Positions 16,058 to 32,000 of a stretch of DNA of 32,000 bases are shown here, piece by piece (within the stretch, counting starts at the first letter, position 1; each line of letters opens with the position of its first letter). This stretch comes from Candidatus Thalassarchaeaceae archaeon (GTDB lineage Archaea > Thermoplasmatota > Poseidoniia > Poseidoniales > Thalassarchaeaceae). A program made the translations under genes and the position numbers. The stretch spans positions 1,050,001-1,082,000 of the forward strand of contig JBJLBP010000001.1 of assembly GCA_045568075.1 (NCBI GenBank). The letters are read 5' to 3'. The notes beneath the pieces are model-generated. The model was not told the origin of the DNA. It made no database searches and saw nothing but the letters and a program-made list of their open reading frames with translations.

Positions 16058-19000
16058 GCATCAGAAATTGTGATTGTGATAGTTGCCTGGTCAGAATCAC
16101 TAGCATCCAAAGCGGCAACAACCAATGTGTACGAAGTTGTAGTCTCGTAATCTATGTCACCGCTGTCAGCGACTGTGACCGCTCCGCCAGTAGATATAGC
16201 GAATGGACCAGTGCCATCTCCATCAGAATCAGTGTTACCTGAGATAATGGATACAGAGGAAGCTGTTCCTTCTGTGACTGCAGCAGTTACGACTGCGGCA
16301 CTGTTTGCCGCACTCTCACTCAGTGTAGCTGATGCATCGGCGATAGACAATCCGACATCAGTTACAGAGGCTGTGAAAGTCTGTGTAGCAGCATCATTAG
16401 TGCCGTCATCGATGACCACTGTGAACTCGTAGTTGTTGTCAGTGTCAGCATCAGCTGGAGCCTCGTAATTGGTAGTTGCTGCGTAAGTCAGCGATACAGT
16501 AGTACCTGAGATTGAACAGGTAATATCATCCTTGTCCGCACCCGCGAGAGTACACGAGTAAGAACCGACCGTGTCGGTGTCAACAATGGTGTATGTCTCG
16601 AAGGCACCAGTAGCCATTTCAGCGGAGCTAGGTGTCGAATCGACGCCTGTGAAAGTAGGTGTCTGGTCGTTAACGTCGGTAATTGATATTGTGAATGCCT
16701 CAACGTAAGCAGTGTTACTGCCATCAGCGACCTTCACGTAAACTGTGTAGGAAGTTGTGGTCTCGTAATTGAATCCGGGGCTGGATCCGACCTCGAGTAT
16801 AGCACTGTCAATTGCGAAGTCCGTGCCGCTGTATGCGGTGGCCCCACCAGAGTCGGTTACTAGCGTGTAGACGTGAGCGTTACCGGATGCGTCACCGTCT
16901 GTTGTAGACAGAGTTCCAATGTCCGTGCCAGCGGCTGCATTCTCAGCTGCACTGGTTGCGGATAGTGCCATGTCAGTGGGCGAGTTATCGTTGACGTTGG
17001 TCACCGTCACAGTGATTGTGTTGGTGTCGGATTGGCTGTTGGCCGTAGCCGTTACAATGACCGTGCAGGTGTTGGAGTTGTCACTGGCACCGCAGCCCGG
17101 ATCCTCAAAGTTCGGAGCAGAGGAGAAAGTCAGCACTCCGTTGGACGAGCCGATGGAGAACAGGTCGCTATCAGTACCTGATATCGTGTAAGTGATGGTG
17201 TCGCTTTCTGCATCAGTGGCCGTGTAGGTGCCGACGGCCTGTTGGTTCTCCGCGGCATCGACTGCGGTGGTTGCAACCGAGAATGCCGGTGCGTCGTCGA
17301 CGGCGTTGACCGTGATGGCCACTGTGTCGGCGGCGCCGTCGGCCCCGTCGTTGGGGGTCATGGTGAGGACCGCGTTGGTGTTGCTGTTGCTGGCGCTGGT
17401 CCAGGTGATGGTGGCTATTGCCAAGTTGATGTTGGCAACCGTGCCAGAGAAGACCATCGCGTTGTCAGCCGTACCGTCGCCGGTCGTGAAACTCAAGCCA
17501 GTGGTCTGAGCGAGCGAGTAGGTGCCGGATTGGGTGGAGGACATGGTGAACGAGTCCATCGAGGTGTCGTCGACATCCGCGATGGCGGATCCAGTGATGG
17601 AAATCGCTGTGTCCTCATTCCCTGAGACATCATCTGCGCTGACGCTCCAGGTCGGCACGTCGTTGACTGCCGCGAAGCTGGTCGTCATGACGTACGCGGC
17701 GCCGCTGGCCGTGTCGCTATCAGAGACCTTGTAGCTGAACGTGATGTCATCGGAGGCGTCGGCCGCGGGAGCCAGCTTCAGGTGCTGGATGTTGGCGTTG
17801 AGGATGACATCGTTGACCGCAACATCGGTCCATGATGAGCCGTCGGCAGACTTGGTGAGTGTGCCGGAGGACTCGAGCGCAGTGATCGTGATCGATACCA
17901 AGGCGCTGTCACCGCCGTCCACGTCAGTATACGGGAAGTCCGCTACCACGTAACCGGTGAAGGTGGTGTCCTCAGTCCCGGCCTGCGTCGATGGTGTGGA
18001 CGAAGTCGGTGCGTCGTTGGCTCCAGTAACGGTCACTGTAATGGTAACCGAGTCAGTGGTGCCAGCGCCATCTGAGACGACTGCAGTTAGAGTATCTGTT
18101 GGCGTGTCCTCGGGATCGAGTGCTTGGGTGTCGTCATCAGCATCGTCGATGGTCCATGTCCATGCTCCAGTAGCCTCTGTCAGAACCCAGTCACCATAGG
18201 TGCCCTCCTTTGTCTGTGTGTCGCCGGCATCGGTGCAGCCGCTGCACGACCATGTCAGAGTGTCGGAGTCGGCATCAGTTGCAACTAGCGTGTCGCCTGC
18301 GGCGCCACCAGAGTTCTCGGTGACGGCTCCAGTGTTGTCAGAGTCTGCGGCAACAGGGTCGTCGTCCACTGCTTGGTAGGTCATTGTGAATGTACCAGCG
18401 GAAGCTGCCCATGCATCGCCATCGTTCACGTTGAAGGTGAAGGTGACTGCGCCGTTCGCGTTGGATACTGGCACGTATGTGAGGCCGCCAAGGTTGCCCA
18501 CAGCGATATCCTGTCCTTGAGTTACGTCAGCATTTGAGTATCTCAGAGTGCCCGTTGCGGGTAGAGTAGTAATATCCACAGTCACTAGTGCGTCACCGGA
18601 GTCCACGTCGGAGTATCCCCAGTCGCTAGCGGTTGTGGTGAAGGTGTGCGTGGCGTCCTCATTCGGCGTAGCGCTGCCGCCAGAGGTGGTCGGAGCATCA
18701 TTGGTGTTCGAGATGACTATGTCGAAGTCGTCGTTCACGGAGGCCGCGCCGTCGGAGCAGGTCGTCCTCACGGAGAGTGTGCCGACGTTTGCGTTGAGTG
18801 GCGTACCGCCGTAGTTGCGGGAATTTGCGGTGAAGGTCAGCCATCCTGGCAGCGCACTTCCATCGGTCTGGGTGGACGTGTATGTGCACGCGGTACCCTC
18901 GACATCGGTGAAGACGTTTGCAGCGAAGGTGTAGTCGAGTACTGCGTCCTCGTTCACCGCTTGATTGGATTGTTCGTTGGCGACGGTCGGTGCGTCGTTC

Positions 19001-22000: not shown

Positions 22001-23874
22001 GTAGCCGAACCGCTTCCACCATCGCTGACTGCTATCCAGCCAGGTAGTGCGGAAGTGGCAGATCCAGCATTGTTCCTCTCCAAGCAAGTGATGGTCAAGT
22101 CGTCGTTATCTACGTCAGTTGAGGTGGCTGTGGCGAAACTGTAAGCCACATCCTCGTAAACCGTTTGATCGGCTGTTGCACCTGCACTAGGAGCATCATT
22201 AGCCGCTGATATGGTAATGGTCATTGTTCCAGTGGCTGAGTAGGCCTCACCGTCGTAGACCTGGTAAGTGAAAGTGTCTTGCCCGTTGTAGTTGGAAGAG
22301 CCAGTGTAGAACAAGTCGTCGAGGTTGGCTAATAGAATTACATCATTGGCCTCGCAAGCCGCGCTACCTTGAGTTGCACATGCGTTCTCATCGTCATCGG
22401 TCAGGGTACCTTGAGATGGTAGTGTGATCAACTTAACCGCTGTCATTGCATCTCCAGAGTCCACATCGCTGTAGCCCCAGTCACTGGATGCGGTCCACGA
22501 AACATATGCTGTATCCTCGGCTACGGTGGCGGTATCGCCAGCGTTCGAAGGTGCGTCATTGGTATTGGAAACCACTATGTCGAAGTCGTCGTTGACTGCG
22601 GAGGAGCCGTCATCAGTGCAGGTAGTCCTCACATTGACTGTGCCGACATCACCGTTAGCGGGAGTGCCGCTGTAAGTCCGTGTATTGGCTGTGAATGTTA
22701 GCCAGCTAGGTAAGGCGGCACCACCAGTTGTAGTGGAGGTGTATGTGCAGGAGTCTCCTGAGTCAACATCAGTGAACACGTTTGAGGCGAACTGGTATGA
22801 GAGTGCGGCGTCCTCGTTGACTGCCTGATTGTCCTGAGCATTAGCGACGGTTGGTGCGTCGTTAACTGGAGTCACAGAAATGGCCATTGTAGCTGCGGAG
22901 GTAGACCAAGCAGCTCCATCGTAAACATAGAAAGTGAATGAGTCGCTTGCTACCGAGTTGAGAGTTGTGGTGTAGAATAGATCATCCAACTTGGCTAGAA
23001 CGATGACGTCATTGATAGCACAGGCTGTTCCTGCACCACAAGCATCCTCATCGTCGTCAGTGAGGACACCATTGCTGGGTAGTGATGCAAGTTTGATTTG
23101 TGTCATTGCAGAGGATTCCGTGTCGCTGTATCCCCAGTCAGTGGATGCGGTCCATGAGACATACGCTTGGTCTTCAGTTACAGTAGCGGTGTCGCCAGCT
23201 GAAGTTGGAGGGTCGTTGACTGCTCCAACGGTAATCGCAACAGTGTCTGTAGTGCTGTCTCCGTCACCGTCGTTTGCAGTTAGTGAAAGCACGGCGTTGG
23301 CATTGGAGTTTGATGCACTAGTCCAAGTGATTGTGGCAATAGCCGTGTTGATGTTAGCTACTGTTCCTCCGAACACCATTGAGCTGTCGTCAGTACCATC
23401 ACCAGAAGCGAAAGAAAGACCAGATGTTGATGCTAGCGTAAATGTTCCACTCTGTGTGGTTGATATTGTCATCGAGTCGAGTGTGGTGTCATCGACATCT
23501 GCGATGGTTGAGCCAGTAATGTCTACCGCAACGTCCTCATTAGGTGCGACATCGTTAGCGGTGCCGCTCCATGTTGGAACATCGTTGACAGCTGACACCG
23601 TTGTTGTGAATACGTATGCAGGACTCAATGCCTGACTGTCATAGACCTTGAAACTAAATGTGACATCAGCTACACTGTTCGTAGCTGGTGTGAGTCTGAC
23701 ATGAGCACCGTCTGCGACATAATCGTCAGCTGCACAGTCGGCCCATGCTCCCCCTACTCCATTTGCATTGTAGCATTCCAAGTCTCCAGTACTCTCCAGA
23801 GTAGTGATGTGGAGTCTGTGTCCACGCAGTGTCGACATCGTCAACATCAGTGAAACTGAAGTCACTAGTTGCAA
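14218..23874 (-). CDS. largest fragment of giant adhesin: NDAP-delimited Ig/cadherin-like, He_PIG, VCBS-like and cadherin-like modules
   Basis: 3218-aa uninterrupted track ORF. The first ~20 residues are off-frame, and real sequence resumes at LHITTLESTGDLECYNANG. Modules are delimited by (V/T)NDAP/NDVP/NDQTP: VCBS-like (GTYGDWVLTEATGAWTWTIDDAD), He_PIG (ALPSWLTFTANTRTYSGTPANGDVGTVNVRTTCTDDG), ~100-aa adhesin repeats (TEDTTYTYAVSDFPYTDVDGGDSALVSITITVLESSGTL...ITFSFKVSDSD), then cadherin-like units. The tail ESPADDWHRQRLRHHYRFL is off-frame after the 14262 insertion. Confidence 0.9.
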   Translation of the reverse strand: MQLVTSVSLMLTMSTLRGHRLHITTLESTGDLECYNANGVGGAWADCAADDYVADGAHVRLTPATNSVADVTFSFKVYDSQALSPAYVFTTTVSAVNDVPTWSGTANDVAPNEDVAVDITGSTIADVDDTTLDSMTISTTQSGTFTLASTSGLSFASGDGTDDSSMVFGGTVANINTAIATITWTSASNSNANAVLSLTANDGDGDSTTDTVAITVGAVNDPPTSAGDTATVTEDQAYVSWTASTDWGYSDTESSAMTQIKLASLPSNGVLTDDDEDACGAGTACAINDVIVLAKLDDLFYTTTLNSVASDSFTFYVYDGAAWSTSAATMAISVTPVNDAPTVANAQDNQAVNEDAALSYQFASNVFTDVDSGDSCTYTSTTTGGAALPSWLTFTANTRTYSGTPANGDVGTVNVRTTCTDDGSSAVNDDFDIVVSNTNDAPSNAGDTATVAEDTAYVSWTASSDWGYSDVDSGDAMTAVKLITLPSQGTLTDDDENACATQGSAACEANDVILLANLDDLFYTGSSNYNGQDTFTYQVYDGEAYSATGTMTITISAANDAPSAGATADQTVYEDVAYSFATATSTDVDNDDLTITCLERNNAGSATSALPGWIAVSDGGSGSATISGTPASANLLSSDDSDSTYNVICTTTDDGAGTLTATDVFVITLTAVNDAPYLSGDTGGGAVDAGSVLEGAALSITLTATDEEGTEVTFAEGTTCPDWVTVTNNGGASTGALTADASEITDARVGDHTCDITMSDTVSTTLDTYTITITGVNDEPTLTASGIGTGDFTEDGSNLALFTSAAAADSDATVTQTYLKIIVTVTNVADTSEYLVIDGSDCLLATAATCVANTATNSGAAVVTVDGATSTVTWTADAGGISEAAMETLINALAYKNTDQSPTDVADRVITITTLQDNGGTANSGDDSVTVALASTVNVIAADDDPTIANSDNTGAVTENSGGAAGDTLVASDVDGDTLTWSCSGCADGGATQTKEGTYGDWVLTEATGAWTWTIDDADSDTQALDPEDTPTDTLTAVVSDGGGTTASITVTVTVTGANDAPTSSAGSESGTEDTTYTYAVSDFPYTDVDGGDSALVSITITVLESSGTLTKSTDGSSWTDVAANDVITNANIQYLKLAPAANAVADITFSFKVSDSDTASGAAYVMTTSFAAENDAPVVASALVNQAVNEDSALSYQFAGGSFTDVEGDTLTYTAALSNGNALSTLSDSWLSFNAGSRTFSGTPLNGGVGTITIRVTATDDGAGTLSVTDDFDIVISNTNDAPTTTGGSATPNEDATHTFTTTASDWGYTDVDSGDALVTVDITTLPATGTLRYSNADVTVGQDIAIGNLGGLTYVPVSNANGAVTFTFKVNDGDAWSASPGTFTMTYQAVDDDPVAADSDNTGAVTENSGGAAGDTLVATDADSGDTLTWSCSGCADGGATQTKEGTYGDWVLTEATGAWTWTIDDADSDTQALDPEDTPTDTLTAVVSDGAGTTDSVTITVTVTGANDAPTSSAGSESGTEDNTYTYAVSDFPYTDVDGGDSALVSITITALESSGTLTKSADGSSWTDVAVNDVILNANIQHLKLAPASNAVADITFSFKVSDSDTASGAAYVMTTSFAAVNDAPTVANEQSNQAVNEDAVLDYTFAANVFTDVEGTACTYTSTQTDGSALPGWLTFTANSRNYGGTPLNANVGTLSVRTTCSDGAASVNDDFDIVISNTNDAPTTSGGSATPNEDATHTFTTTASDWGYSDVDSGDALVTVDITTLPATGTLRYSNADVTQGQDIAVGNLGGLTYVPVSNANGAVTFTFNVNDGDAWAASAGTFTMTYQAVDDDPVAADSDNTGAVTENSGGAAGDTLVATDADSDTLTWSCSGCTDAGDTQTKEGTYGDWVLTEATGAWTWTIDDADDDTQALDPEDTPTDTLTAVVSDGAGTTDSVTITVTVTGANDAPTSSTPSTQAGTEDTTFTGYVVADFPYTDVDGGDSALVSITITALESSGTLTKSADGSSWTDVAVNDVILNANIQHLKLAPAADASDDITFSYKVSDSDTASGAAYVMTTSFAAVNDVPTWSVSADDVSGNEDTAISITGSAIADVDDTSMDSFTMSSTQSGTYSLAQTTGLSFTTGDGTADNAMVFSGTVANINLAIATITWTSASNSNTNAVLTMTPNDGADGAADTVAITVNAVDDAPAFSVATTAVDAAENQQAVGTYTATDAESDTITYTISGTDSDLFSIGSSNGVLTFSSAPNFEDPGCGASDNSNTCTVIVTATANSQSDTNTITVTVTNVNDNSPTDMALSATSAAENAAAGTDIGTLSTTDGDASGNAHVYTLVTDSGGATAYSGTDFAIDSAILEVGSSPGFNYETTTSYTVYVKVADGSNTAYVEAFTISITDVNDQTPTFTGVDSTPSSAEMATGAFETYTIVDTDTVGSYSCTLAGADKDDITCSISGTTVSLTYAATTNYEAPADADTDNNYEFTVVIDDGTNDAATQTFTASVTDVGLSIADASATLSESAANSAAVVTAAVTEGTASSVSIISGNTDSDGDGTGPFAISTGGAVTVADSGDIDYETTTSYTLVVAALDASDSDQATITITISDANDQTPSVSVASTYSHAEAAATTFQTYTITDSDTSGTYTCTLGGDDAADFSASISGKVCTVVWAAAPNYESPADDDTNNVYDITIAFSDGTNDLAAQTTAVTVTDVNDQTPSVSVASTYSHAEAAATTFQTYTITDSDTSGTYTCTLGGDDAADFSASISGKVCTVVWAAAPNYESPADDDTDNVYDITIAFSDGTNDLAAQTTAVTVTDANDQTPAVSVASTYSHAEAAATTFQTYTITDSDTSGTYTCTLGGDDAADFTASISGKVCTVVWAAAPNYESPADDDTDNVYDITIAFSDGTNDLAAQTTAVTVTDVNDQTPSVSVASTYSHAEAAATTFQTYTITDSDTSGTYTCTLGGDDAADFTASISGKVCTVVWAAAPNYESPADTGTNNVYDITIAFSDGTNDLAAQTTAVTVTDVNDQTPSVSVASTYSHAEAAATTFQTYTITDSDTSGTYTCTLGGDDAADFSASISGKVCTVVWAAAPNYESPADDDTDNVYDITIAFSDGTNDLAAQTTAVTVTDTNDQTPAVSVASTYSHAEAAATTFQTYTITDSDTSGTYTCTLGGDDAADFSASISGKVCTVVWAAAPNYESPADDWHRQRLRHHYRFL
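17640..21050 (-). repeat. supra-repeat, about 2.5 x 1.34 kb (445-451 aa, each unit = VCBS-like + adhesin repeat + He_PIG + adhesin repeat)
   Basis: The landmark gcgaa(g/a)ctggtcgtcatgacgta occurs at 17672, 19007 and 20360, with spacings 1335 and 1353 bp. At protein level, units start DDDPTIANSDNTG / DDDPVAADSDNTG / DDDPVAADSDNTG. A more diverged older copy of the same module order lies at 21,050..25,000. Confidence 0.8.
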
Positions 23875-24022
23875 AAGTCACTAGTGTGTCTTCATCCGTA
23901 GATCCTGAACCTGTACTAGAGGTCGGTGCATCGTTAGCACCAGTGATTGTGATTGTAATGACGATGGTGTCAGTTGCACCGCTGCCATCAGTGGCAGTCG
24001 CCGTTATTGTTTCTTGTGACAT
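23726..24022 (-). CDS. fragment of giant adhesin isolated between two frame breaks
   Basis: SQETITATATDGSGATDTIVITITITGANDAPTSSTGSGSTDEDTLVTFATSDFSFTDVDDVDTA matches the later in-frame sequence TDTLTAVVSDGGGTTASITVTVTVTGANDAPTSSAGSESGTEDTTYTYAVSDFPYTDVDGGDSA. The tail (WTQTPHHYSGEYWRLGMLQCKW) is off-frame. Confidence 0.75.
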   Translation of the reverse strand: MSQETITATATDGSGATDTIVITITITGANDAPTSSTGSGSTDEDTLVTFATSDFSFTDVDDVDTAWTQTPHHYSGEYWRLGMLQCKWSRGSMGRLCS

Positions 24023-25260
24023 GCCTCAGCATCGTTAAGTGAATCCAGGTCGTTATCAACATCGGAAGGGGTGTAGACCCAACCACCGGTTGCCTCGGTT
24101 AGAACCCAACTTCCGTAGGTATCGGTTAGTGTCTGAGTGTCTCCTGCATCAGTACAACCTACACACGACCAGGTTGGTGTGTCGCCAGTATCGGCATCAG
24201 TAACTACGAGAGTATCGGAAACAGTACCGCCAGCATCTTCTGTATACGCACCAGTATTGTCGGAATTCGCAATTACTGGGTCATCGTTAGAGTTGGCTAC
24301 AGTAACTGTAGCTGCAATCGAAACAGTTACGGAGTCGTCGCCCGCACCAGTAGTGCCGCCGTTATCCTTCAGAGTGGTGATTGTTACCACACGGTTGTTG
24401 GCAACTGATGGTGAGTCGTCTGTGTTCTTGTAGGCTAGAGCATTGATTAGAGTCTCCATCAAAGCCTCAGAGATTCCCTCGCCATCGCCAGTCCATGTGA
24501 GTGTTGCAGTAGTACTGTCCATGGTAACTACAGCAGCACCGGAGTTAGTTGCAGTGTTAGCTACACAAGTAGCAGCAGCAGTGATGTCACAGTCTGAGCC
24601 ATCGATAACGATGTACTCTTCCTCGTCCACAACATTTGTGATAGTAATCACAATTGCCTCGTAAGTCTGAACTACTTGTGAATCGGAATCAGTAGCAGCA
24701 GCACTAGAGAAAAGTGCGAAATTTGATCCGCCTTCAGTGAACGTGCCTGATGCCCCGGTTGCAGAAAGGGTAGGCTCGTCGTTCACTTGAGTAACAGAAA
24801 TGGTGTATGAAGCCTGAACAGTTTCACCGCCAGAGACACCCTGGATGGTTATTGCAGTTCCACCAGTTACATGAGCATCAGTAGGAGTTCCAGTGATGGT
24901 TGCAGTAGAATCACTGTTGTCCGTAAAAGTCATCCAAGAATGACAGGAAGTGCATGATAGAACAACAGTGGTCCCATCAGGATCGTTCCACTGTACCGTC
25001 GAGCTATAGGCGACGTCTTCGGTGGAGGAGGTCGTCGGTGTTGTGACGGCGAATGGCGGCACAAACCTAGCATCTTGAGTATCTTCAAGAGCGCTAACGC
25101 TAGCGCTACCGCTATCGAAGATTTGGCCTGCAACTAGGATGAGTGTGATCGCTGCGGCAAGGCCGATTGCGACGTTCCTTAGGTCATTCGATGTCAGGTT
25201 CTTCTGGTTTGTATGGCTCACTGTAGTGAGCGGCACGGCTGCAACCATGTTGGTTCCCAC
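24004..25260 (-). CDS. N-terminal fragment of giant adhesin with signal/anchor helix
   Basis: 418-aa track ORF. The track start is GTG 25260 and an ATG lies at 25248 (MVAAVPLTTVSH...). A single N-terminal hydrophobic helix follows a basic residue: R-NVAIGLAAAITLILVAGQIF (25117..25173). Then come beta-rich modules and a VCBS-like unit (TYGSWVLTEATGGWVYTPSDVDNDLDSLNDAEA) cut short by a frame break. It is the only export signal upstream of 1261. Confidence 0.85.
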   Translation of the reverse strand: MGTNMVAAVPLTTVSHTNQKNLTSNDLRNVAIGLAAAITLILVAGQIFDSGSASVSALEDTQDARFVPPFAVTTPTTSSTEDVAYSSTVQWNDPDGTTVVLSCTSCHSWMTFTDNSDSTATITGTPTDAHVTGGTAITIQGVSGGETVQASYTISVTQVNDEPTLSATGASGTFTEGGSNFALFSSAAATDSDSQVVQTYEAIVITITNVVDEEEYIVIDGSDCDITAAATCVANTATNSGAAVVTMDSTTATLTWTGDGEGISEALMETLINALAYKNTDDSPSVANNRVVTITTLKDNGGTTGAGDDSVTVSIAATVTVANSNDDPVIANSDNTGAYTEDAGGTVSDTLVVTDADTGDTPTWSCVGCTDAGDTQTLTDTYGSWVLTEATGGWVYTPSDVDNDLDSLNDAEACHKKQ

Positions 25261-25906: not shown

Positions 25907-28588
25907 TCAGGCGTCAATCTCTTCTTCTTCGACGTCCTCGAATTCCTCGTCTTCTTCGTCGAGGAATTGCTCGGTCTCGTCATACAGGTCGAACTCGTCA
26001 CTGTCTTCGTCCTTACCGCCAGCGGTGCGGGCGATTAGAGCGATTACTGCGATTAGAACAACTGCGATTCCGATGAACGGCGCAGGTTCTGCACTGATAT
26101 CGTCAAGGATTCCTAGTGGGTTTCCATTGTCACCCTGTCCGTCGTTGTTACCATCGTACTGCTCAGTTGGGTCCCACGGGAAGTGGTCCTCCCAGTCTTC
26201 ACAGCTGGTGCAAACTCCGTTCGCATCGAGAACGTATGTTGCCGGATCTGGGACACCATCGTTGTCATCGTCTGGGTCAATCGCGTTGCAGAGTCCGTCG
26301 CCGACGACCATGTCGTCATCGGTGCCGTATTCTCCATCTGGACCGACGTCGGTCTCGTTGTCGATTGGCATGACGTTGGCGTTGTTCGGGTCTCCCTGTC
26401 CGTTCAGAGCGTTGCGGCAGATCAGCTCAGTAGTGTCGAGCCAGCCATCGCCGTCATCATCGATGTCGGCGTTGTCACCAGTTCCGTCACCATCTAGGTC
26501 ACGGTTCTCGTTCGGATTCATTGGGAAGGCGTCATCGAGGTCGAGGTATCCGTCGTTGTCATCATCCTGGTCGGTGATGTCACAGTCGTGATCCATATCG
26601 TTGTCCGCAGGCACGGAGGTGTGATCCATTGGATCTGTGCCACAGTTAGGCTCCTCGTTATCCATCCAGCCGTCGTTATCGTCGTCGGAGTCTGAGAAGT
26701 CACCAATTCCGTCGCCGTCATTGTCAGCGTTTTCTGTCGCATCGAATGGGAAGGCATCCAGAGTATCTGGAGTTCCGTCGCCGTCATCGTCGGTGTCGAC
26801 CTTGTCGCAGATCATGTCGCCATCGTAGTCGTCAGGGACTGAGTCAGCGTCCAGTGCGTCACTTCCGCACTCGAACTCCTCAGCATCCGTCCAGGCGTCA
26901 CCGTCGTCGTTGAGGTCAGCGTTGTCGCCAACTCCGTCGCCGTCAGTGTCAATCCACTCAGACTGGTCGTATGGGAACGCGTCGAGCTCATCGAGCCAAA
27001 GGTCGTTGTCGTCGTCAGTGTCGGCGTTATCGCCAATTCCGTCTCCATCAAAGTCAGCCCACTCAGAAGGATCGATTGGGAAGACATCGTCTGCATTCAG
27101 GACTCCGTCACCATCGACGTCGTCGTCGATTGTGTCACAGATTCCGTCCAAATCAAGATCCAGCGGAATCGATGAGACCTCGAATGGGTCCGAGGCGCAC
27201 TCTATCTCGATTTCGTCGAAGTAGCCGTCGTTGTCATCGTCAGGATCAGCGTTGTCACCGATTCTGTCGTTGTCGTTGTCAGCCCACTCGGTCGCGTTGA
27301 ACGGGAAGGCATCCTCGTCATCCATGTAGCCGTCGTTGTCGTCATCCATATCGACGAGGTCACAAAGTGTGTCGTTGTCGAAGTCGGTTGGATACGAGTC
27401 GGCGTCCATTGGGTCGGTGACACAATCTGCCTCAGCAGAGTTGTTCCATCCATCTCCATCAAGATCAGTATCGCTATTGTCACCTAGTCCGTCACCATCA
27501 GTATCGGTAGTTTCGTTCCCATCGAATGGGAAGTCATCTTCTGAATCGATAACGCCATCTCCGTCGCTATCCGTGTCGAGTGAATCACAGATTCCATCTC
27601 CATCGGTGTCGCTTGGGAAGCTGTTACCATCGTTCGGATCAGTACCACACATATTCTCCATTGCAGTGTGCCAGCCGTCACCGTCTGGGTCAAGCGAATA
27701 GAACTGAATCGTGATGTTGTAGTCTGTTCCAGTAGTATCGTAGATGTAATTCCTCACGATGAAGTAAACTGTATCTCCACCATAGTAAGTAGTGGTTGCA
27801 GAGGCGTTCCAAACTTGAGGGTTAGTGTAGCCTGCAAATCCAACCTGACTTTGTGCTGAATTGTAGACATACAATAGATACCAAACTGATGGGGTATTGT
27901 AACCTGGATCGAGTGTGATCTCAAATCCATGGTCAACTGGAACAATGAAGTTGTACCAATCTTGGTCATCTAGACCCGCAGCAGCCCATCCTCCGTATTC
28001 GTAGGTATTGTTCGCAGTGATGTTGTTGTAAGCTGCGATATCTACTGAAGACCCGAAGGAAGAACCGGCATCTCCACCACTGTTTGCATCATCCTGGTCT
28101 CCACCTGGTAGATCCGACAGATTTCCGTAGGTGATGTCCAGCTGGTAGTCCATGTCAGTTACACCATAGGAATAAATTCCGAAGGTTACCCAATGTCCAC
28201 CCACAGGCCATAATCCTGAATGAGCTGTCTTTGGGAAGCTCTGAGCTTGTCCGTAAGCCGATGTGTCTACGTAGTATGCAGGGTTCGCAGGATAGACACA
28301 TTGCATATTCCAGTTACCGCACATATACATGTATGTGTAGACGTATGCGTTACCATTTGCAGCACTCAGATCTGGGAAGGATGTTGTGATGTTGACGTAC
28401 TTTCCAGTAGGAACCAAGATTTGGTAGTAATCGCGCTGATCCCATGTGTTATCGAACCAGCCAGTGCAAGTTCCACCAGTGTCATTCGCATCGCCATTGA
28501 TGTCGGCTTGATTCGAATTATTGACGAATGATGGGCCGGCATCCCATGTAGCTGAGTAGATGACTGTCACCAGCGTCGGTACCAGCAC
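25907..28588 (-). CDS. C-terminal fragment of second surface mega-protein: PPC-like modules, TSP3-like repeats, TM anchor, acidic tail
   Basis: 893-aa track ORF. The start is a GTG assigned by the track and there is no signal peptide. It has PPC-like modules (DQRDYYQILVPTGKYVNITTSF; DDQDWYNFIVPVDHGFEITLDPGY), then about 12 TSP3-like units with CxxDPxDxxSxP linkers. The TM helix is PFIGIAVVLIAVIALIA (26030..26080), followed by the 40-aa tail RTAGGKDEDSDEFDLYDETEQFLDEEDEEFEDVEEEEIDA. Confidence 0.85.
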   Translation of the reverse strand: MLVPTLVTVIYSATWDAGPSFVNNSNQADINGDANDTGGTCTGWFDNTWDQRDYYQILVPTGKYVNITTSFPDLSAANGNAYVYTYMYMCGNWNMQCVYPANPAYYVDTSAYGQAQSFPKTAHSGLWPVGGHWVTFGIYSYGVTDMDYQLDITYGNLSDLPGGDQDDANSGGDAGSSFGSSVDIAAYNNITANNTYEYGGWAAAGLDDQDWYNFIVPVDHGFEITLDPGYNTPSVWYLLYVYNSAQSQVGFAGYTNPQVWNASATTTYYGGDTVYFIVRNYIYDTTGTDYNITIQFYSLDPDGDGWHTAMENMCGTDPNDGNSFPSDTDGDGICDSLDTDSDGDGVIDSEDDFPFDGNETTDTDGDGLGDNSDTDLDGDGWNNSAEADCVTDPMDADSYPTDFDNDTLCDLVDMDDDNDGYMDDEDAFPFNATEWADNDNDRIGDNADPDDDNDGYFDEIEIECASDPFEVSSIPLDLDLDGICDTIDDDVDGDGVLNADDVFPIDPSEWADFDGDGIGDNADTDDDNDLWLDELDAFPYDQSEWIDTDGDGVGDNADLNDDGDAWTDAEEFECGSDALDADSVPDDYDGDMICDKVDTDDDGDGTPDTLDAFPFDATENADNDGDGIGDFSDSDDDNDGWMDNEEPNCGTDPMDHTSVPADNDMDHDCDITDQDDDNDGYLDLDDAFPMNPNENRDLDGDGTGDNADIDDDGDGWLDTTELICRNALNGQGDPNNANVMPIDNETDVGPDGEYGTDDDMVVGDGLCNAIDPDDDNDGVPDPATYVLDANGVCTSCEDWEDHFPWDPTEQYDGNNDGQGDNGNPLGILDDISAEPAPFIGIAVVLIAVIALIARTAGGKDEDSDEFDLYDETEQFLDEEDEEFEDVEEEEIDA

Positions 28589-30821
28589 CGCAGTCGTTCG
28601 GGTTCGAACCAGGCTCGTTAGCCGGTGTAATCATTGTCAGATTCATCCAGTAGATTCCGCCGCCAATATCTGTAAACACGCGTATGTAGAGGTCTTGGCC
28701 GCCGTTGGAATAGGTTGCCCACATTGTCTCAGGATTATCGTAGTAAGATGAGTCAATGAAGTACAAGTAGGTGGATGCCGGATTCTTGTAGTACAGACCG
28801 GTATCAATATCGTGCCCACCAGGGAATGATACCTCAACCTTGAGACCGTAATTCTGTGGCAAGTAAATCTTGTAGTAATCATAACGATCATCCGTATCGT
28901 GACCGTATCCGACATAACTGCCATTCATCGATGGTAAGTCAAGTGCATCATATCCATATGTGCTGTTACCACCATCATCACCAGTTCCGGCATCGTCCCA
29001 TGGACCATCCCATCCTGCTGATTGATCGTAAGTGGTGTAATCGATTGTGTAATTAGTCTCGACATCTTCTACCAAATCACGGACTAAGAGCTTGATGTAA
29101 ACAGTAGTCTCTTGACTGAGATAGTTGTTGAAGTAATACGATTCATTGGTCGACATACCCTTGGGGTTCAGTGTGTATGGGTAGTTGTTCTGGGCCAAGT
29201 AGGACCAGTATCCATCCATGTAGAGGAATGCGTCAATTGCTTCTGAGCCCTCAGGTTGGTCGAATGTTAGAACAAACCAGAATCCTTCATCGGGTGCTAG
29301 TGTGTAAGAATACCAATCCTCATCATCGTATCCATCACAGATGGTTCCAGTGAATGCTCCGGATGAGCCCAAACTGGTGATGTTCGTAGCCGAAGTCTGG
29401 AGATCTCCAGCGTCGGTTCCGGATCCGCCATCATCAGCAACAGAACATGGTGGTGGAACTGCAGGCGCAAGCTGCAATTGCAGCGAATAGCCAGCGTGAG
29501 TGTCTGTGCTGTAATAAGCGTAGTAACTTACCTTAACGAATGCAGTAGCGCCTTCGAAGGAAGTTCCGAGATCAATGAACTCAGGCTGATTATACCACGA
29601 ATAGTCAACCATCGTTGTGAAGCCCGCGTCAGAGTAGACCTCGAGATCCAGGTCGGCATTCTTGTTCCAATCCAGCGTCAGGTTGGCTGCGTATCCGGTT
29701 GGGATATGCACAGCGAAGTAATCTGCCGTATCCGTTTGATTGACGTGCCCACCAGTGGAGACATCAAGATTGAACGCGTCACCAGTAAGTGAGACCATTG
29801 CAATCGCATTGGCTGGTGGAGTAGTATCTTCTACAGATATTGACATTCCACCGTCGCCGTATGTGTCTTCCATCGTGACGGTATAGGTTCCAGCATCAGT
29901 GTAAGTAGCAAGTGTTCCTGAGGAATAAGCAGCGAGCGAGCCAACTGCCCAAGAGTCAGTCGTTCCATCTGGCTTGTCGATATCAACAGAAGTTTCGTAT
30001 GGGCACCAGTAATCGCAGGTATAGGTTACCTCTGCAGTGCTTCCAGACATGATTGAGAAAGAACCTGAGGCATAATCTCCATTCGGATATGAATCGAACT
30101 CCAAAGATAGGAGTGCATTAGCATCAGGCGAGTCTGACCAATCTCCTGGAAATCCATTATCTGCAGGGAATGTTGTGATGTTCATGTGGTAATCAGGGAT
30201 GCTGGCGTAGCCACAGTAGTAGCACCAGACCCATAGCAGAACTTCTTGGCCACCGAGGGCGCGAGACTGTCCTCCTAGACTGTTGTAGTTTCCAATGCAG
30301 GTACCATCAGAACCGATTCCGACTTGGCCTGAAGTGCTGTAGTAGCAGTAACCCCACGAGTTGCCCGAATATGTGGAGTAGCCTGACATGGAAGCAGGCC
30401 CGTATGCTGCCATGTATGCGTAGTTGTCATAGAAAGATCCTGTGCCCGACATGTTCCACTCGAGAGTGTATCTAACTCCGTAGCCAGGTTCCATATCTAC
30501 AAGGAAAACATCAATGTTAGTTGTTGATGTAGAAGAGTAACCTGTCGCTTGCATGGTATTCCAGTAATCGACAGATTCCGGTCCGTCCTCCCACTCGAAA
30601 TCAGAAGTGATATCCATCGCTCCTGAATAACCGACGCCTGCGTCGGTTCCTCGACAGGCATCTGCGCCTTGACAAGGTGATGGAGCTGCTTCCATCCTCA
30701 GGCTGTTATCTTGTAATTCGGCCTTCTCCTCTGCTACGCTAATCACAGGTAGAACGCTCATTGTTATCATCATTAATGCTAGCACTATTGTTCGGGCTGT
30801 CTTGCTTCGCATGGTCATCAC
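28518..30821 (-). CDS. N-terminal fragment of second surface mega-protein: Sec signal peptide, PPC-like modules, YGDGG module
   Basis: 767-aa track ORF with GTG 30821 / ATG 30818. The signal peptide is MMTMRSKTARTIVLALMMITMSVLPVISVA-EEK (30732..30821). There are four complete PPC-like modules (TDTADYFAVHIPTGYAANLTLDW...DLDLEVYSD; DDEDWYSYTLAPDEGFWFVLTF; DDRYDYYKIYLPQNYGLKVEVSF; ESVDYWNT) and one YGDGG module (AGTYTVTMEDTYGDGGMSISVED). A fifth PPC-like module starts NDCGAGTDAGDS and then goes off-frame. Confidence 0.85.
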   Translation of the reverse strand: MMTMRSKTARTIVLALMMITMSVLPVISVAEEKAELQDNSLRMEAAPSPCQGADACRGTDAGVGYSGAMDITSDFEWEDGPESVDYWNTMQATGYSSTSTTNIDVFLVDMEPGYGVRYTLEWNMSGTGSFYDNYAYMAAYGPASMSGYSTYSGNSWGYCYYSTSGQVGIGSDGTCIGNYNSLGGQSRALGGQEVLLWVWCYYCGYASIPDYHMNITTFPADNGFPGDWSDSPDANALLSLEFDSYPNGDYASGSFSIMSGSTAEVTYTCDYWCPYETSVDIDKPDGTTDSWAVGSLAAYSSGTLATYTDAGTYTVTMEDTYGDGGMSISVEDTTPPANAIAMVSLTGDAFNLDVSTGGHVNQTDTADYFAVHIPTGYAANLTLDWNKNADLDLEVYSDAGFTTMVDYSWYNQPEFIDLGTSFEGATAFVKVSYYAYYSTDTHAGYSLQLQLAPAVPPPCSVADDGGSGTDAGDLQTSATNITSLGSSGAFTGTICDGYDDEDWYSYTLAPDEGFWFVLTFDQPEGSEAIDAFLYMDGYWSYLAQNNYPYTLNPKGMSTNESYYFNNYLSQETTVYIKLLVRDLVEDVETNYTIDYTTYDQSAGWDGPWDDAGTGDDGGNSTYGYDALDLPSMNGSYVGYGHDTDDRYDYYKIYLPQNYGLKVEVSFPGGHDIDTGLYYKNPASTYLYFIDSSYYDNPETMWATYSNGGQDLYIRVFTDIGGGIYWMNLTMITPANEPGSNPNDCGAGTDAGDSHLLSYMGCRPIIRQ

Positions 30822-30891: not shown

Positions 30892-30947
30892 TGAAAGAAA
30901 GATGAGCATATTCACTACTGTCTGATGGGGTTTGGAGTTTATTTGTT

Positions 30948-31036
30948 AAAAAAATACCAATTTAAGGAAAAAAATATTCTAAATCAGCCATTTCAAAAAA
31001 AAATAGGCTCAGAGGACAATCATGACTAGTATGATT
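30948..31036 (-). terminator. hairpin plus three oligo-T runs downstream of the 31087 stop (archaeal-type terminator region)
   Basis: On the minus strand: stop at 31087, then hairpin AATCAT-ACTAGTC-ATGATT (31036..31018). After 14 nt comes T9 (31003..30995), then T7 (30974..30968) and T7 (30954..30948). Oligo-T tracts are the established archaeal termination signal. Confidence 0.6.
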
Positions 31037-31086
31037 CAGGAACGCTCATTCTAGCAAGGCCAGAATATTTCTGAGAGTAGTTCAGT

Positions 31087-32000
31087 TCAGAATCCAGGAG
31101 GTGGTGGTGGAATTTGTGAATCATCGTTGTCTGTATCGGGTTCACTACCAAACCCTGGTGGAGGAGGAGGCACTTCTGAATCGCTTGGTGCCATTACTTC
31201 TTCAAATCCAGGTGGTGCAGGTGGCACCTCCGATACCTCTTCGCTCTCAGCCTCAAATCCAGGGGGCGGAGGAGGGACTTCTTCCGAGTTGTCTTCGACC
31301 ACTTCATCCTCAAATCCAGGGGGCGGAGGAGGGACTTCTTCCGAGTTGTCTTCGACCACTTCATCCTCAAATCCAGGCGGTGCTGGAGGAATCTCAGAAT
31401 CTTCGCTTGGCTCATATTCTGCCCACGACTCAGTATCATCGTAGGATGAATACTGATCGTCGCCATAAGTTGCAGCCTCGTCATCCTTCTTGCGGACTAA
31501 CACGACCGCAGCCGTAGCTCCGATTGCAGCCAGAATCAGGATGAACACTAATGCCGTTAATCCCGGGTTGAGCTTCATGTGGTCGACAATAGATAGTGGG
31601 TGAGCATTGTCTCCAAGTCCGTCACTATTGCGATCTTCCCACTCAGTACCATCCTTAGGATAGACATCATTGACGTCAGGAACACCATCACCATCGTCGT
31701 CAGGATCGACGGCGTCACAGGTGCCATCTGCGTCTGTATCCAATGGCACTGAATTCGCAGATAGGCTGTCAGTACCGCACATTTGCTCTGCGTTGTCAGT
31801 CCAATCGTCGTTGTCGTCATCGATGTCAGCGTTGTTTCCTTGGCCGTCACCATCAGTGTCAGACCATTCATTTCCATTGAATGGGAATGCGTCGTCAACA
31901 TCTTGCACCTGATCGTTATCATCATCGATGTCGATGATGTCACAGAGCATATCCTGATCATTGTCCAGAGGGACACTGTTTGCATCAAGAGGATCTGAGC
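31087..32000 (-). CDS. 3' part of a third TSP3-repeat surface protein: TM anchor and 135-aa Pro-rich/acidic cytoplasmic tail (gene continues beyond the right edge)
   Basis: The track ORF is 31087..31950, but the frame is open to 32000 (SDPLDANSVPLDNDQD-MLCDIIDIDDDNDQVQD...). It has TSP3-like units, then NPGL-TALVFILILAAIGATAAVVLV-RKKDD (TM 31495..31560). The tail carries six [IV]PP[AP]PPGF motifs and ends exactly at ...IPPPPPGF-stop. Confidence 0.85.
   Translation of the reverse strand, partial: SDPLDANSVPLDNDQDMLCDIIDIDDDNDQVQDVDDAFPFNGNEWSDTDGDGQGNNADIDDDNDDWTDNAEQMCGTDSLSANSVPLDTDADGTCDAVDPDDDGDGVPDVNDVYPKDGTEWEDRNSDGLGDNAHPLSIVDHMKLNPGLTALVFILILAAIGATAAVVLVRKKDDEAATYGDDQYSSYDDTESWAEYEPSEDSEIPPAPPGFEDEVVEDNSEEVPPPPPGFEDEVVEDNSEEVPPPPPGFEAESEEVSEVPPAPPGFEEVMAPSDSEVPPPPPGFGSEPDTDNDDSQIPPPPPGF
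31254..31367 (-). repeat. perfect tandem duplication, 2 x 57 bp (19 aa: EVPPPPPGFEDEVVEDNSE)
   Basis: 31254..31310 is identical to 31311..31367 (caaatccagggggcggaggagggacttcttccgagttgtcttcgaccacttcatcct). A third copy diverges after 10 nt. Confidence 0.95.

What the first reader, a model, noticed from the sequence alone, without database searches (positions are those of the whole stretch)
31090..31560. PGF-CTERM-like anchor with a 135-aa cytoplasmic tail carrying six [IV]PP[AP]PPGF motifs
The TM region NPGL-TALVFILILAAIGATAAVVLV-RKKDD closely mirrors the true PGF-CTERM 30 kb away (VPGF-TGIISTLALLGAAIGVGLAG-RRKDD). Here the protein does not end. It continues with an acidic tail containing EIPPAPPGFE, EVPPPPPGFE (twice), EVPPAPPGFE, EVPPPPPGFG and a terminal QIPPPPPGF-stop, spaced 17-21 residues apart. 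Regularly spaced polyproline motifs on the cytoplasmic side of a giant adhesin look like docking sites. In eukaryotes, PPG followed by a hydrophobic residue is the ligand of GYF domains, and other polyproline motifs bind profilin, SH3, WW and EVH1 domains. I know of no characterised reader in Euryarchaeota. This could be an undescribed outside-in coupling between a Ca-dependent surface adhesin and a cytoplasmic partner. It could also be a sortase-signal derivative that escapes cleavage.
Basis: partly seen in the sequence, partly recalled or inferred. Interest (0 to 1): 0.7.

Follow-up and report, generated by a model that had tools for sequence, protein, structure and literature searches.

The report
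Conserved polyproline motif array, archaeal tail
A surface protein of an uncultured marine archaeon (Marine Group II) ends in a disordered, probably cytoplasmic tail carrying six copies of the motif PPxPPGF; the motif is conserved across the archaeal order and looks like a docking site, but its binding partner is still unknown.

Summary
The minus-strand gene ending at 31087 encodes TSP3-like repeats, one transmembrane helix, RKKDD and a 135-aa acidic tail with six [IV]PP[AP]PPGF motifs. The last motif is the C-terminus.

The organism is a Marine Group II archaeon (Poseidoniales). The protein has about 1,320 aa (signal peptide, PPC-like domains, TSP3 repeats). It is a separate gene from the giant cadherin-like one.

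I collected 38 unique complete orthologous tails.
- Nearly all keep a PPxPPG[FL] motif although the rest of the tail is unalignable.
- Most carry one motif, followed 13-16 aa later by an orphan Trp-rich beta mini-domain of about 40 aa.
- The window's clade lost that domain once and expanded the motif to 4-7 copies.
- A 99.3%-identical relative has five copies; the sixth comes from a recent 57-nt duplication.

Motif columns are invariant (34/35) against 25/46 for spacers. The motif occurs nowhere else in 407 kb.

Topology evidence (signal peptide, one TM, glycosylation sequons only in the ectodomain, Rho_N/SAP inserts in related tails) places the tail inside the cell. The PGF-CTERM resemblance is not conserved: orthologues read NPLL, NPII or NPML.

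The best reading is a multivalent cytoplasmic docking array. No reader was identified. The mini-domain family, which includes soluble paralogues, is an untested candidate.

The parts
31603..31998 (-). C-terminal part of the ectodomain: TSP3-like (thrombospondin type 3) acidic Ca-binding-type repeats. The gene continues beyond the window end.
   Evidence: Translation. The full-length orthologue L004 hits Pfam TSP3_bac (PF18884, E=1.6e-8, 5 stretches) and weakly PPC. NCBIfam throspo3_MtsC gives E=1e-4 on the window fragment.
31558..31602 (-). Conserved extracellular juxtamembrane element HPLSIVDHMKLNPGL. Its invariant core is D[HK]MKLNP.
   Evidence: P, L, I, D, M, K, L, N and P are invariant in alignment A4 and in the tails. 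The 'GL' after NP varies among orthologues.
31495..31557 (-). Single transmembrane helix TALVFILILAAIGATAAVVLV.
   Evidence: Kyte-Doolittle 19-mer means reach 2.96. The AF2 model shows a helix at pLDDT 72-84.
31480..31494 (-). Stop-transfer cluster RKKDD (positive-inside signal).
   Evidence: A basic cluster follows the TM in all orthologues.
31435..31470 (-). Second conserved cytoplasmic element: Tyr-rich acidic juxtamembrane motif TYGDDQYSSYDD (family pattern [WY]x[DE][DE]xY[ST][SR]Y).
   Evidence: It was picked as a conserved pattern by the locus scan. It is present in most orthologous tails.
31369..31392 (-). Motif 1, IPPAPPGF.
31312..31335 (-). Motif 2, VPPPPPGF. Motifs 2 and 3 are the two copies made by the recent 57-nt duplication; which is the extra one cannot be told. 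Close relatives have only one of them.
31255..31278 (-). Motif 3, VPPPPPGF.
31204..31227 (-). Motif 4, VPPAPPGF.
31150..31173 (-). Motif 5, VPPPPPGF.
31090..31113 (-). Motif 6, IPPPPPGF, which forms the C-terminus. The stop codon is at 31087-31089.
   Evidence: The terminal DDSQIPPPPPGF* is identical in all members of the window clade.
31247..31377 (-). 57-nt tandem repeat, 2.3 copies, 98% match. It encodes EDEVVEDNSEEVPPPPPGF and is the source of the copy-number difference from relatives.
   Evidence: L021 (99.3% identical) and L001 lack one copy.
30900..31086 (-). 3' flank with oligo-T runs on the coding strand, as at archaeal transcription ends. It holds no remnant of the mini-domain.
   Evidence: Sequence. 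A mini-domain HMM finds nothing in the six frames of the window.

Best explanation
The region is the intrinsically disordered, strongly acidic cytoplasmic tail of a type I membrane glycoprotein of a Marine Group II archaeon (Poseidoniales). The full architecture is: signal peptide, about six PPC-like beta-sandwich domains, TSP3 repeats, one TM, tail.

The six [IV]PPxPPGF[ED] units are short linear motifs in polyproline-II conformation. Together they most likely act as a multivalent docking platform for a cytoplasmic partner.

Proposed evolutionary history:
1. The ancestral tail of this protein family carries a fixed cassette: one PPPPPGF motif, a 13-16 aa linker, and an orphan Trp-rich beta mini-domain of about 40 aa at the C-terminus. 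The same cassette sits on other MGII surface proteins.
2. In the common ancestor of the window's clade the mini-domain was lost.
3. The motif unit of about 18-19 aa was then amplified by tandem duplication to 4-7 copies, and this is still ongoing. I read the amplification as avidity compensating for the lost domain.

What is shown: the sequence, the conservation, the copy-number dynamics, the disorder, and the cassette with its fixed spacing.

What is inferred: the cytoplasmic location, that the motif binds something, and that multivalency matters. The partner is unidentified.
For: Organism and orthology:
- The 12 genome loci that carry an organism title are all Poseidoniales, Thalassarchaeaceae, Euryarchaeota or 'Methanobacteriota' MAGs.
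- A large downstream surface-protein gene is present in the window, L001, L009, L010, L014 and L021, consistent with synteny.

Selection on the motif:
- Of the 38 unique complete tails, 35 keep a strict PPxPPG[FYLIMW] motif, although the tails are otherwise unalignable. The other three come from one clade, where it has decayed to PPVPLGL, PPVPSGF or SPMPPGE.
- Among five close relatives, 34 of 35 motif columns are invariant against 25 of 46 spacer columns (Fisher p=8.5e-6).
- Motif copies differ at synonymous sites. Copies 5 and 6 differ at 7 of 8 codons synonymously. Conservation is therefore at the protein level, not a leftover of DNA repeats.
- The motif is absent from every other ORF in 407 kb.

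Cassette:
- The motif-to-domain linker is 13-16 aa in 22 unique tails whose total length ranges from 124 to 228 aa. In distant relatives it is 11-16 aa by my own count on the sequences.
- The cassette sits on at least three architectures: PPC/TSP3; ANF_receptor/Peripla_BP_6 plus TSP3 (P0013); and a protein with several hydrophobic stretches plus SAP (P0026).

Single loss followed by amplification:
- Tails without the domain form one clade in a neighbour-joining tree. They carry 2 or 4-7 motifs, whereas tails with the domain carry 0-1.
- Copy number differs between genomes that are 99.3% and 97.4% identical to the window. L015 carries an independent duplication of units 3-4.

Topology:
- Every full-length orthologue has exactly two hydrophobic segments, a signal peptide and one TM.
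- The seven full-length orthologues have 17-29 NxS/T sequons in the ectodomain; the nine tails examined have 0, except for one sequon in L010.
- RKK follows the TM.
- Related tails contain Rho_N (33.5 bits, gathering score 24.9) or SAP (29.2 bits, gathering score 23.9). These are cytoplasmic nucleic-acid-binding modules.

Disorder:
- In the AF2 model only the TM helix is structured. The rest of the tail is coil at pLDDT 46-65.

Precedent from the literature:
- PPPPGF and PxPGF are genuine ligand motifs of GYF domains and of ALG-2 in eukaryotes (PMC4748815, PMC4346919).
- PPP and PPG stretches are costly to translate (established EF-P/eIF5A knowledge). Six retained copies therefore argue for function.
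Against: - No binding partner was found, and no known polyproline-reader domain (GYF, WW, SH3, EVH1, profilin) could be looked for in the genome, because only 32 kb plus orthologous loci were available.
- AF2 did not dock the motif onto the mini-domain in cis. The motif region has pLDDT of about 56, although the alignment held only 5 sequences.
- The mini-domain shows no profile similarity to WW, SH3 or GYF (hhalign probability below 4%).
- It has no Pfam, PDB-sequence or Foldseek match.
- Domain loss followed by motif gain is a single evolutionary event, so the 'avidity compensation' reading is an n=1 inference.
- One domain-bearing clade let the motif decay (L013, L038-L043), so the motif is not indispensable everywhere.
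- Topology is inferred, not measured.
Confidence: 0.55

Rival explanations
1. The tail is a passive spacer or entropic bristle. In this reading it is just an acidic, proline-rich, extended segment comparable to TonB-type Pro-rich rods. The repeat array is neutral slippage of low-complexity DNA left over after the C-terminal domain was lost, and nothing binds PPxPPGF specifically.
For: Orthologous tails contain other Pro/Glu repeat rods, such as IPDPPERPPELAVE and PPEMPPQPPETPP, which vary freely in number. Copy number of the PPxPPGF unit also varies between near-identical genomes. The tail is predicted to be disordered. No partner was found.
Against: The exact heptad PPxPPGF is held while the neighbouring spacers drift (34/35 against 25/46 invariant columns). 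It persists across orthologues whose tails are otherwise unalignable. It keeps a fixed 13-16 aa distance from the mini-domain. Copies have diverged at synonymous sites but not at the amino-acid level. A spacer needs neither the invariant G-F nor the acidic flank.
Confidence: 0.2
2. The PPxPPG runs are translational pause sites. They would be aIF5A-dependent stalls that time the membrane insertion or folding of the protein, or tune its expression, and would not be protein-binding motifs.
For: PPP and PPG are the strongest known stalling sequences and require EF-P/eIF5A (established knowledge). There are six in 100 residues, placed just after the TM. An aIF5A gene lies in the same window (678-1064; TIGR00037 114.7 bits).
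Against: Stalling does not need the invariant Phe or the [IV] and acidic flanks. The distance from the TM to the first motif is not conserved among orthologues; by my count on the sequences it ranges from about 35 to 130 aa. The last motif is the C-terminus itself. Its fixed spacing to a folded domain in the ancestral form points to a role in the finished protein. aIF5A is a housekeeping gene, so its presence 30 kb away is probably coincidence.
Confidence: 0.08
3. This is an archaeosortase-signal derivative. NPGL-TM-RKKDD would be a PGF-CTERM-type tripartite signal that ArtA still cleaves, lipid-anchoring the ectodomain and leaving the TM plus tail as a separate membrane peptide. Alternatively it is a decayed signal that escapes cleavage.
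For: The layout resembles the visible PGF-CTERM at 1261 (VPGF-TM-RRKDD-stop). An internal PGF tripartite signal followed by a long C-terminal part is processed by ArtA in Haloferax volcanii (reviewed in PMC6098224).
Against: The signature is not PGF here, and it is not conserved. Orthologues read NPGL, NPGM, NPGI, NPLL, NPLM, NPII or NPML, with no F in any of 44 sequences. Permuting PGF to PFG already blocks processing (PMC6098224). What is conserved is D[HK]MKLNP upstream. The NCBIfam PGF-CTERM model gives no hit, but the in-window positive control also failed, so that test carries no weight. A conserved cytoplasmic cassette of motif plus domain makes sense only if the tail stays attached or is functional.
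Confidence: 0.05
4. The tail is extracellular (reversed or unusual topology), and the motifs are surface ligands for other cells or eukaryotic hosts.
For: The motif matches eukaryotic GYF and ALG-2 ligands (PMC4748815, PMC4346919). MGII archaea associate with phytoplankton (PMC8821943, abstract).
Against: The protein has a signal peptide and a single TM. The basic cluster lies on the tail side. There are 17-29 glycosylation sequons in the ectodomains of the seven full-length orthologues, against none in the nine tails examined apart from one in L010. Ca-binding TSP3 repeats and Cys pairs lie on the N-terminal side. Cytoplasmic-type Rho_N and SAP domains occur inside related tails.
Confidence: 0.03

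Closest known systems
GYF-domain ligands (PPG-hydrophobic), e.g. the tetraproline PPPPGF motifs of tristetraprolin that recruit GIGYF2-4EHP (PMC4748815; GIGYF-TNRC6 structures, PMC10187677)
   Same: Same core sequence (PPPPGF). Several copies are spread through a disordered region. The inferred role is multivalent docking.
   Different: GYF readers are described in eukaryotes, and no GYF domain was found or could be searched for here. The orphan mini-domain shows no profile similarity to a GYF sequence. The context is a membrane-protein tail in a Thermoplasmatota archaeon, not an RNA-binding protein.
[quoted passage not shown]
   Same: The PxPGF core matches every copy. It lies in a Pro-rich disordered region at a membrane interface.
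   Different: ALG-2 is a eukaryotic penta-EF-hand protein, and there is no evidence of such a reader in MGII. This is a pattern match only.
Formin FH1 and Ena/VASP polyproline tracks that bind profilin; Asgard profilins that bind polyproline (PMC8410842)
   Same: Regularly spaced polyproline tracks in a flexible region, which is a multivalent recruitment logic. This is the only archaeal precedent for polyproline reading.
   Different: Profilin and actin are not known in Poseidoniales. The invariant G-F and acidic flanks are not profilin features. Reported affinities for Asgard profilins are weak (0.3-3 mM).
PGF-CTERM / archaeosortase A sorting signal (PMC6098224)
   Same: A short motif, then a TM helix, then a basic cluster, near the end of an archaeal surface glycoprotein. 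A PGF-CTERM visible by inspection lies in the same window (1261-1350 region).
   Different: There is no PGF: NPGL in the window and NPLL, NPII or NPML in orthologues. A conserved tail of 90-190 aa (135 aa in the window) follows. The conserved residues lie upstream (D[HK]MKLNP). Membership is not met.
Cytoplasmic tails of eukaryotic type I adhesion receptors (integrins, cadherins) that carry short linear motifs for adaptor proteins
   Same: A Ca-binding adhesive ectodomain, a single TM, and a short disordered tail with conserved docking motifs. This is the closest analogy for how it may work.
   Different: There is no homology, no known adaptor, and no evidence of signalling. The organism is a prokaryote.
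Tandem-repeat-generated disordered regions in archaeal proteins (Borg elements, PMC9879509)
   Same: In-frame tandem nucleotide repeats create and rapidly resize a disordered protein segment.
   Different: Here the repeat unit contains an ancient, order-wide conserved motif. It is not a de novo sequence.

Membership tests
PGF-CTERM archaeal sorting signal (ArtA substrate) | Conserved Pro-Gly-Phe signature immediately before the hydrophobic helix | tested here: not met
   The window reads NPGL. Orthologues read NPGL, NPGM, NPGI, NPLL, NPLM, NPII or NPML, with no F in any of the 44 orthologous sequences compared. Permuting PGF to PFG already blocks processing (PMC6098224).
PGF-CTERM archaeal sorting signal (ArtA substrate) | Hydrophobic helix followed by a basic cluster | tested here: met
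   A 21-aa TM followed by RKK. This feature is generic to any stop-transfer anchor.
PGF-CTERM archaeal sorting signal (ArtA substrate) | Located at the extreme C-terminus | tested here: not met
   135 residues follow the TM. One processed internal exception is known in Haloferax volcanii (PMC6098224).
PGF-CTERM archaeal sorting signal (ArtA substrate) | Match to the curated HMM (TIGR04126) | tested here: inconclusive
   There is no hit at E<=10. However, the visible PGF-CTERM at window 1261 also gave no hit, so the positive control failed.
PGF-CTERM archaeal sorting signal (ArtA substrate) | Archaeosortase A encoded in the genome | not testable with these tools
   Only 32 kb of the genome is available.
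GYF-domain ligand (PPG-hydrophobic motif) | Sequence pattern PPG followed by a hydrophobic residue in a disordered region | tested here: met
   Six PPGF copies. The tail is predicted to be coil at pLDDT 46-65.
GYF-domain ligand (PPG-hydrophobic motif) | A GYF-domain protein present in the same cell compartment | not testable with these tools
Pfam and NCBIfam scans of window ORFs found no such domain, though the ORFs at 25907-28588 and 28518-30821 were scanned against Pfam only at E<=0.01.
Bacterial/archaeal TSP3-repeat surface protein (PF18884) | Repeated DxDxDGxxDxxD Ca-binding-type units that match PF18884 | tested here: met
   The full-length orthologue L004 scores E=1.6e-8 with 5 stretches, above the gathering score. 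P0012 and P0016 also hit. The 303-aa window fragment alone gave no Pfam hit, but the repeats are visible in the translation.
Type I single-pass membrane protein (N-out, C-in) | Cleavable N-terminal signal peptide, one TM, positive charges on the C-terminal side | tested here: met
   The seven full-length orthologues have exactly two hydrophobic segments (N-terminal and C-proximal). RKK or RRK follows the TM. Those seven have 17-29 sequons in the ectodomain, and the nine tails examined have 0, with 1 in L010. No dedicated topology predictor was available.
Motif + mini-domain cassette of MGII surface-protein tails (undescribed family, defined here) | C-terminal Trp-rich mini-domain W..LP.GG.Y...Y.G..G.W....D.SW | tested here: not met
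   A mini-domain HMM finds nothing in the six frames of the window or of any locus of the domain-less clade. The window protein ends at the sixth motif.
Motif + mini-domain cassette of MGII surface-protein tails (undescribed family, defined here) | PPxPPG[FLI] motif in the cytoplasmic tail, and orthology to cassette-bearing proteins | tested here: met
   Same juxtamembrane anchor; a large downstream surface-protein gene in the loci checked. The neighbour-joining tree places the window clade inside the family.

The most novel reading that the evidence does not exclude

That domain occurs in three settings:
- in cis, 13-16 aa after the motif, on ancestral tails of this family;
- on other surface proteins, including one with a periplasmic-binding-protein-type ectodomain;
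- as a free cytoplasmic protein of 64-76 aa, encoded next to a DUF2240 (Rpa1 N-terminal-type) gene in Poseidoniaceae and other Thermoplasmatota.

The six-motif tail of the window would then be a multivalent scaffold. It would cluster or couple a Ca-binding surface adhesin to domain-bearing partners inside the cell. Those partners may be associated with the nucleoid, because Rho_N and SAP modules recur in these tails. This would be a prokaryotic counterpart of SLiM-based outside-in coupling.
Probability: 0.2. Interest if true: 0.8.

Novelty: new variant of a known kind. Interest (0 to 1): 0.55.

Why it matters
Docking through short linear motifs in disordered cytoplasmic tails is a hallmark of eukaryotic adhesion and signalling. 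I found no description of it in non-Asgard archaea. No paper in the searchable library links Poseidoniales with polyproline.

Marine Group II archaea are described as the most abundant planktonic archaea in ocean surface waters, and they are uncultured. Their thrombospondin-type surface proteins are thought to mediate particle or cell attachment (PMC6461757).

A conserved, still-amplifying intracellular motif array on such a protein has two uses. With its ancestral orphan domain, it gives a concrete, peptide-sized handle for testing whether these cells connect surface adhesion to something inside. It also defines a new small domain family that can be made and tested in vitro without culturing the organism.

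Tried and rejected
- **Pfam and NCBIfam on the window fragment and its neighbours.** No informative hits for the tail.
- **PGF-CTERM HMM.** Uninformative, because the visible PGF-CTERM control also failed to hit.
- **Homologue search with the window TM plus tail.** Only 4 hits with E<=0.01 in a database of 5.8 billion protein clusters. The multi-motif tail is therefore confined to a narrow clade, and it is not a widespread tail type.
- **Identity of the mini-domain.**
  - No Pfam hit.
  - No PDB sequence hit better than E=0.2.
  - Foldseek against PDB gave nothing.
- **AF2 of motif + linker + domain (P0006, 5-sequence alignment).** The domain folds at pLDDT about 80-88 into four short strands. 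The motif is not confidently docked (pLDDT about 56). The cis-binding idea is therefore unsupported but not excluded.
- **Relocated or decayed copy of the mini-domain.** None found near the gene in the window or in the domain-less clade.
- **MGIIa versus MGIIb assignment of the MAGs.** I looked in the supplements of Rinke et al. and found no match.
- **aIF5A in the window as a functional link.** Considered, and judged a coincidence of a housekeeping gene.
- **The 'giant adhesin' context.** Rejected. The tail belongs to a separate gene of about 1,320 aa.
Full report
**1. What is there**

The gene lies on the minus strand. Its stop codon is at 31087-31089 and it runs off the window at 32000. The 303 residues available read, in order:
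- acidic TSP3-like repeats;
- HPLSIVDHMKLNPGL;
- a 21-residue hydrophobic helix;
- RKKDD;
- a 135-aa tail (counted from RKKDD) with 41 D+E, 3 K+R and 31 Pro.

The tail contains IPPAPPGF, VPPPPPGF (twice), VPPAPPGF, VPPPPPGF and a terminal IPPPPPGF. The motifs are 17-20 residues apart. Copies 2 and 3 are identical at the DNA level because of a 57-nt tandem duplication. PPG[FYW] occurs nowhere else in any of the six frames of the window.

**2. Whose gene it is**

A scan of one genome per GTDB species found 12 orthologous loci. All are MAGs of Marine Group II archaea, titled Poseidoniales, Thalassarchaeaceae, Euryarchaeota or 'Methanobacteriota'.

L021 is 99.3% identical to the window over 4.2 kb and holds the complete gene of 1,300 aa. 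The L004 orthologue shows the whole architecture:
- a signal peptide;
- about six repeats of a PPC-like module (a weak PF04151 hit);
- about a dozen TSP3 repeats (PF18884, E=1.6e-8);
- the TM and the tail.

The window protein therefore has about 1,320 aa. It is a separate gene from the giant cadherin-like ORFs at 8246-25260. TSP-type genes are widespread in MGII and have been linked to adhesion (PMC6461757).

**3. Topology**

- Each of the seven full-length orthologues has exactly two hydrophobic segments, an N-terminal signal peptide and the C-proximal TM.
- Their ectodomains carry 17-29 NxS/T sequons (about 2 per 100 aa). The nine tails examined carry none, except for one sequon in L010.
- A basic cluster follows the TM.
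- In one orthologous clade (L010, L030-L032) a Rho_N domain is inserted in the tail (33.5 bits against a gathering score of 24.9).
- A distant relative (P0026) has a SAP domain after the tail domain (29.2 bits against 23.9). Both are cytoplasmic nucleic-acid-binding modules.
- AF2 predicts only the TM helix. The rest of the tail is coil at pLDDT 46-65.

The tail is therefore most probably a disordered cytoplasmic segment. This is inferred, not measured.

**4. The motif is under selection**

I recovered 38 unique complete orthologous tails. Of these, 35 keep a strict PPxPPG[FYLIMW] motif, although the rest of the tail cannot be aligned between clades. The other three come from one clade, where the motif has decayed to PPVPLGL, PPVPSGF or SPMPPGE.

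Among five close relatives, 34 of 35 motif columns are invariant against 25 of 46 spacer columns (p=8.5e-6). Within the window, the copies differ at synonymous positions: copies 5 and 6 differ at 7 of 8 codons synonymously. All 90 strict motifs found in 407 kb of MGII sequence lie in these tails.

Polyproline and PPG runs are costly to translate (established EF-P/eIF5A knowledge), which makes neutral retention of six copies unlikely.

**5. The ancestral cassette**

Most orthologues carry one motif. It is followed after 13-16 residues by a conserved C-terminal mini-domain of about 40 aa (SWEDLPDGGDYVQTEPMRYVGEDCGTWIRQEDDSW). The linker length is fixed even though tail length varies from 124 to 228 aa and the linker sequence drifts.

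AF2 folds the domain into four short beta strands at pLDDT about 80-88. The domain has no Pfam, PDB-sequence or Foldseek match, and it has no profile similarity to WW, SH3 or GYF.

A full HMMER scan of 1.84 billion representative proteins found only 23 clusters. Nearly all show the domain at the C-terminus, and those long enough show a TM and a Pro-rich stretch before it. Many have PPxPPG[FLI] 11-16 aa upstream by my count on the sequences. Besides this family, the cassette sits on:
- P0013, a protein with an ANF_receptor/Peripla_BP_6 ectodomain plus TSP3 repeats;
- P0026, a protein with several hydrophobic stretches that also has SAP.

A more diverse profile also recovered free-standing proteins of 64-76 aa with a conserved N-terminus (MAAxxMxALG). 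Some are on contigs of 0.6-1.6 Mb. Members of their clusters are named Candidatus Poseidoniaceae or Candidatus Thermoplasmatota. In five loci the gene immediately precedes a DUF2240 gene. DUF2240 is the archaea-specific N-terminal helical bundle of Rpa1, which is implicated in protein-protein contacts (PMC10122647).

**6. What happened in the window's lineage**

In a neighbour-joining tree of the last 135 ectodomain residues plus the TM, the tails without the mini-domain form one clade. One branch (L012-like) has two motifs and ends in PPPPPPGFFDEVE. The other branch, which contains the window, ends exactly at a motif and has 4-7 strict copies:
- 5 in L001, L003, L004, L016, L017, L019/L020 and L021;
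- 4 plus one degenerate copy in L018;
- 6 in the window;
- 6 plus one degenerate copy in L015, through an independent duplication.

No remnant or relocated copy of the domain lies near the gene. The domain was therefore lost once, the motif was kept and multiplied, and the array is still changing between genomes that are 97-99% identical.

**7. Interpretation**

If the motif had only packed against its neighbouring domain, it should have decayed once the domain was gone. Instead it was retained and amplified. This argues that it binds something in trans, and that several copies help.

I therefore favour a multivalent cytoplasmic docking array (confidence 0.55). The partner is unknown. The mini-domain family is the obvious candidate but is untested, and AF2 did not dock the motif in cis.

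Rivals:
- a passive Pro/Glu spacer with neutral repeat slippage (0.2);
- aIF5A-dependent pause sites (0.08);
- an archaeosortase-signal derivative (0.05);
- an extracellular tail (0.03).

**8. The PGF-CTERM idea**

The resemblance to VPGF-TM-RRKDD at 1261 is real, but it is generic: a helix followed by a basic stop-transfer cluster. In orthologues the positions after the invariant D[HK]MKLNP read GL, GM, GI, LL, LM, II or ML, and none has F. Permuting PGF already abolishes ArtA processing (PMC6098224). The curated HMM could not serve as a test, because it also missed the visible PGF-CTERM in this window. Membership is not supported.

**9. Comparison with known systems**

The heptad matches eukaryotic GYF ligands (the PPPPGF motifs of tristetraprolin; PMC4748815) and the ALG-2 type 2 motif PxPGF (PMC4346919). 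The spaced tracks recall formin FH1 regions. Among archaea, polyproline reading has been shown only for some Asgard profilins, and weakly (PMC8410842).

These are functional analogies only. No homologous reader is in evidence. No paper in the searchable library links Poseidoniales with polyproline.

**10. Verdict**

The feature is real and conserved, it is most probably cytoplasmic and it is evolving dynamically. It is a new archaeal variant of the 'disordered tail with docking motifs' theme, and it is tied to an undescribed small domain family. The mechanism is plausible but unproven. Interest 0.55.

Noticed in passing
window 678-1064 (-): Gene for translation factor aIF5A (TIGR00037 114.7 bits against a cutoff of 75.45; hypusine loop SKPGKHGSAKA). 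This is the factor needed to translate polyproline runs. It lies in the same window as a gene with six PPxPPG motifs. Probably a coincidence of a housekeeping gene.
   Followed up: partly
window ~28562 (ORFs 28518-30821 and 25907-28588, minus strand): One extra base relative to the 99.3%-identical L021 splits a single surface-protein gene into overlapping 767-aa and 893-aa ORFs. The gene is 1,615 aa in L001 and reads open for at least 1,247 aa in L021. This is either an assembly error or a recent frameshift.
   Followed up: yes
window 8246-25260 (-): ORFs of 848, 1,289 and 3,218 aa overlap end to end. The 418-aa ORF at 24004-25260 lies about 130 nt upstream of them. Together they look like one giant cadherin-like gene (Cadherin_4, Big_9, He_PIG, near-identical ~100-aa repeats) broken by frame changes. 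ORFs 6695-7909 and 1261-6354 (TSP3 repeats, ending VPGF-TM-RRKDD) may continue it.
   Followed up: partly
window 25907-26020 (-), C-terminus of the 893-aa ORF: The neighbouring surface protein also ends in a TM plus a purely acidic tail (RTAGGKDEDSDEFDLYDETEQFLDEEDEEFEDVEEEEIDA). It has no proline motif.
   Followed up: no
L010, L030, L031, L032 tails; P0026 residues 302-334: A Rho_N domain (33.5 bits, above the gathering score) is inserted in the cytoplasmic tail of one orthologous clade. A SAP domain follows the mini-domain in a distant relative. Nucleic-acid-binding helix-extension-helix modules thus recur in these tails.
   Followed up: partly
L048 6001-6794; L049-L052: A free-standing protein of 64-76 aa, homologous to the tail mini-domain, is encoded directly upstream of a DUF2240 (Rpa1 N-terminal-type) gene. 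In L048 it also lies just downstream of a Kelch/CARDB type I surface protein. Cluster members are named Poseidoniaceae or Thermoplasmatota.
   Followed up: partly
P0013 (938 aa): The same cassette of motif plus mini-domain ends a protein whose ectodomain is a periplasmic-binding-protein / ANF-receptor-type ligand-binding domain plus TSP3 repeats. The cassette is therefore shared by unrelated surface proteins.
   Followed up: partly
window 31435-31470 (-) and orthologues: A second conserved cytoplasmic element lies just after the TM: [WY]x[DE][DE]xY[ST][SR]Y (TYGDDQYSSYDD in the window). It is present in most clades but missing in two.
   Followed up: no
window 1261-1350 (-): The C-terminus of the 1,697-aa TSP3 protein has PGF, then a TM, then RRKDD-stop. 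It is not recognised by the NCBIfam PGF-CTERM model at E<=10. MGII sorting signals may be too divergent for the curated model.
   Followed up: partly
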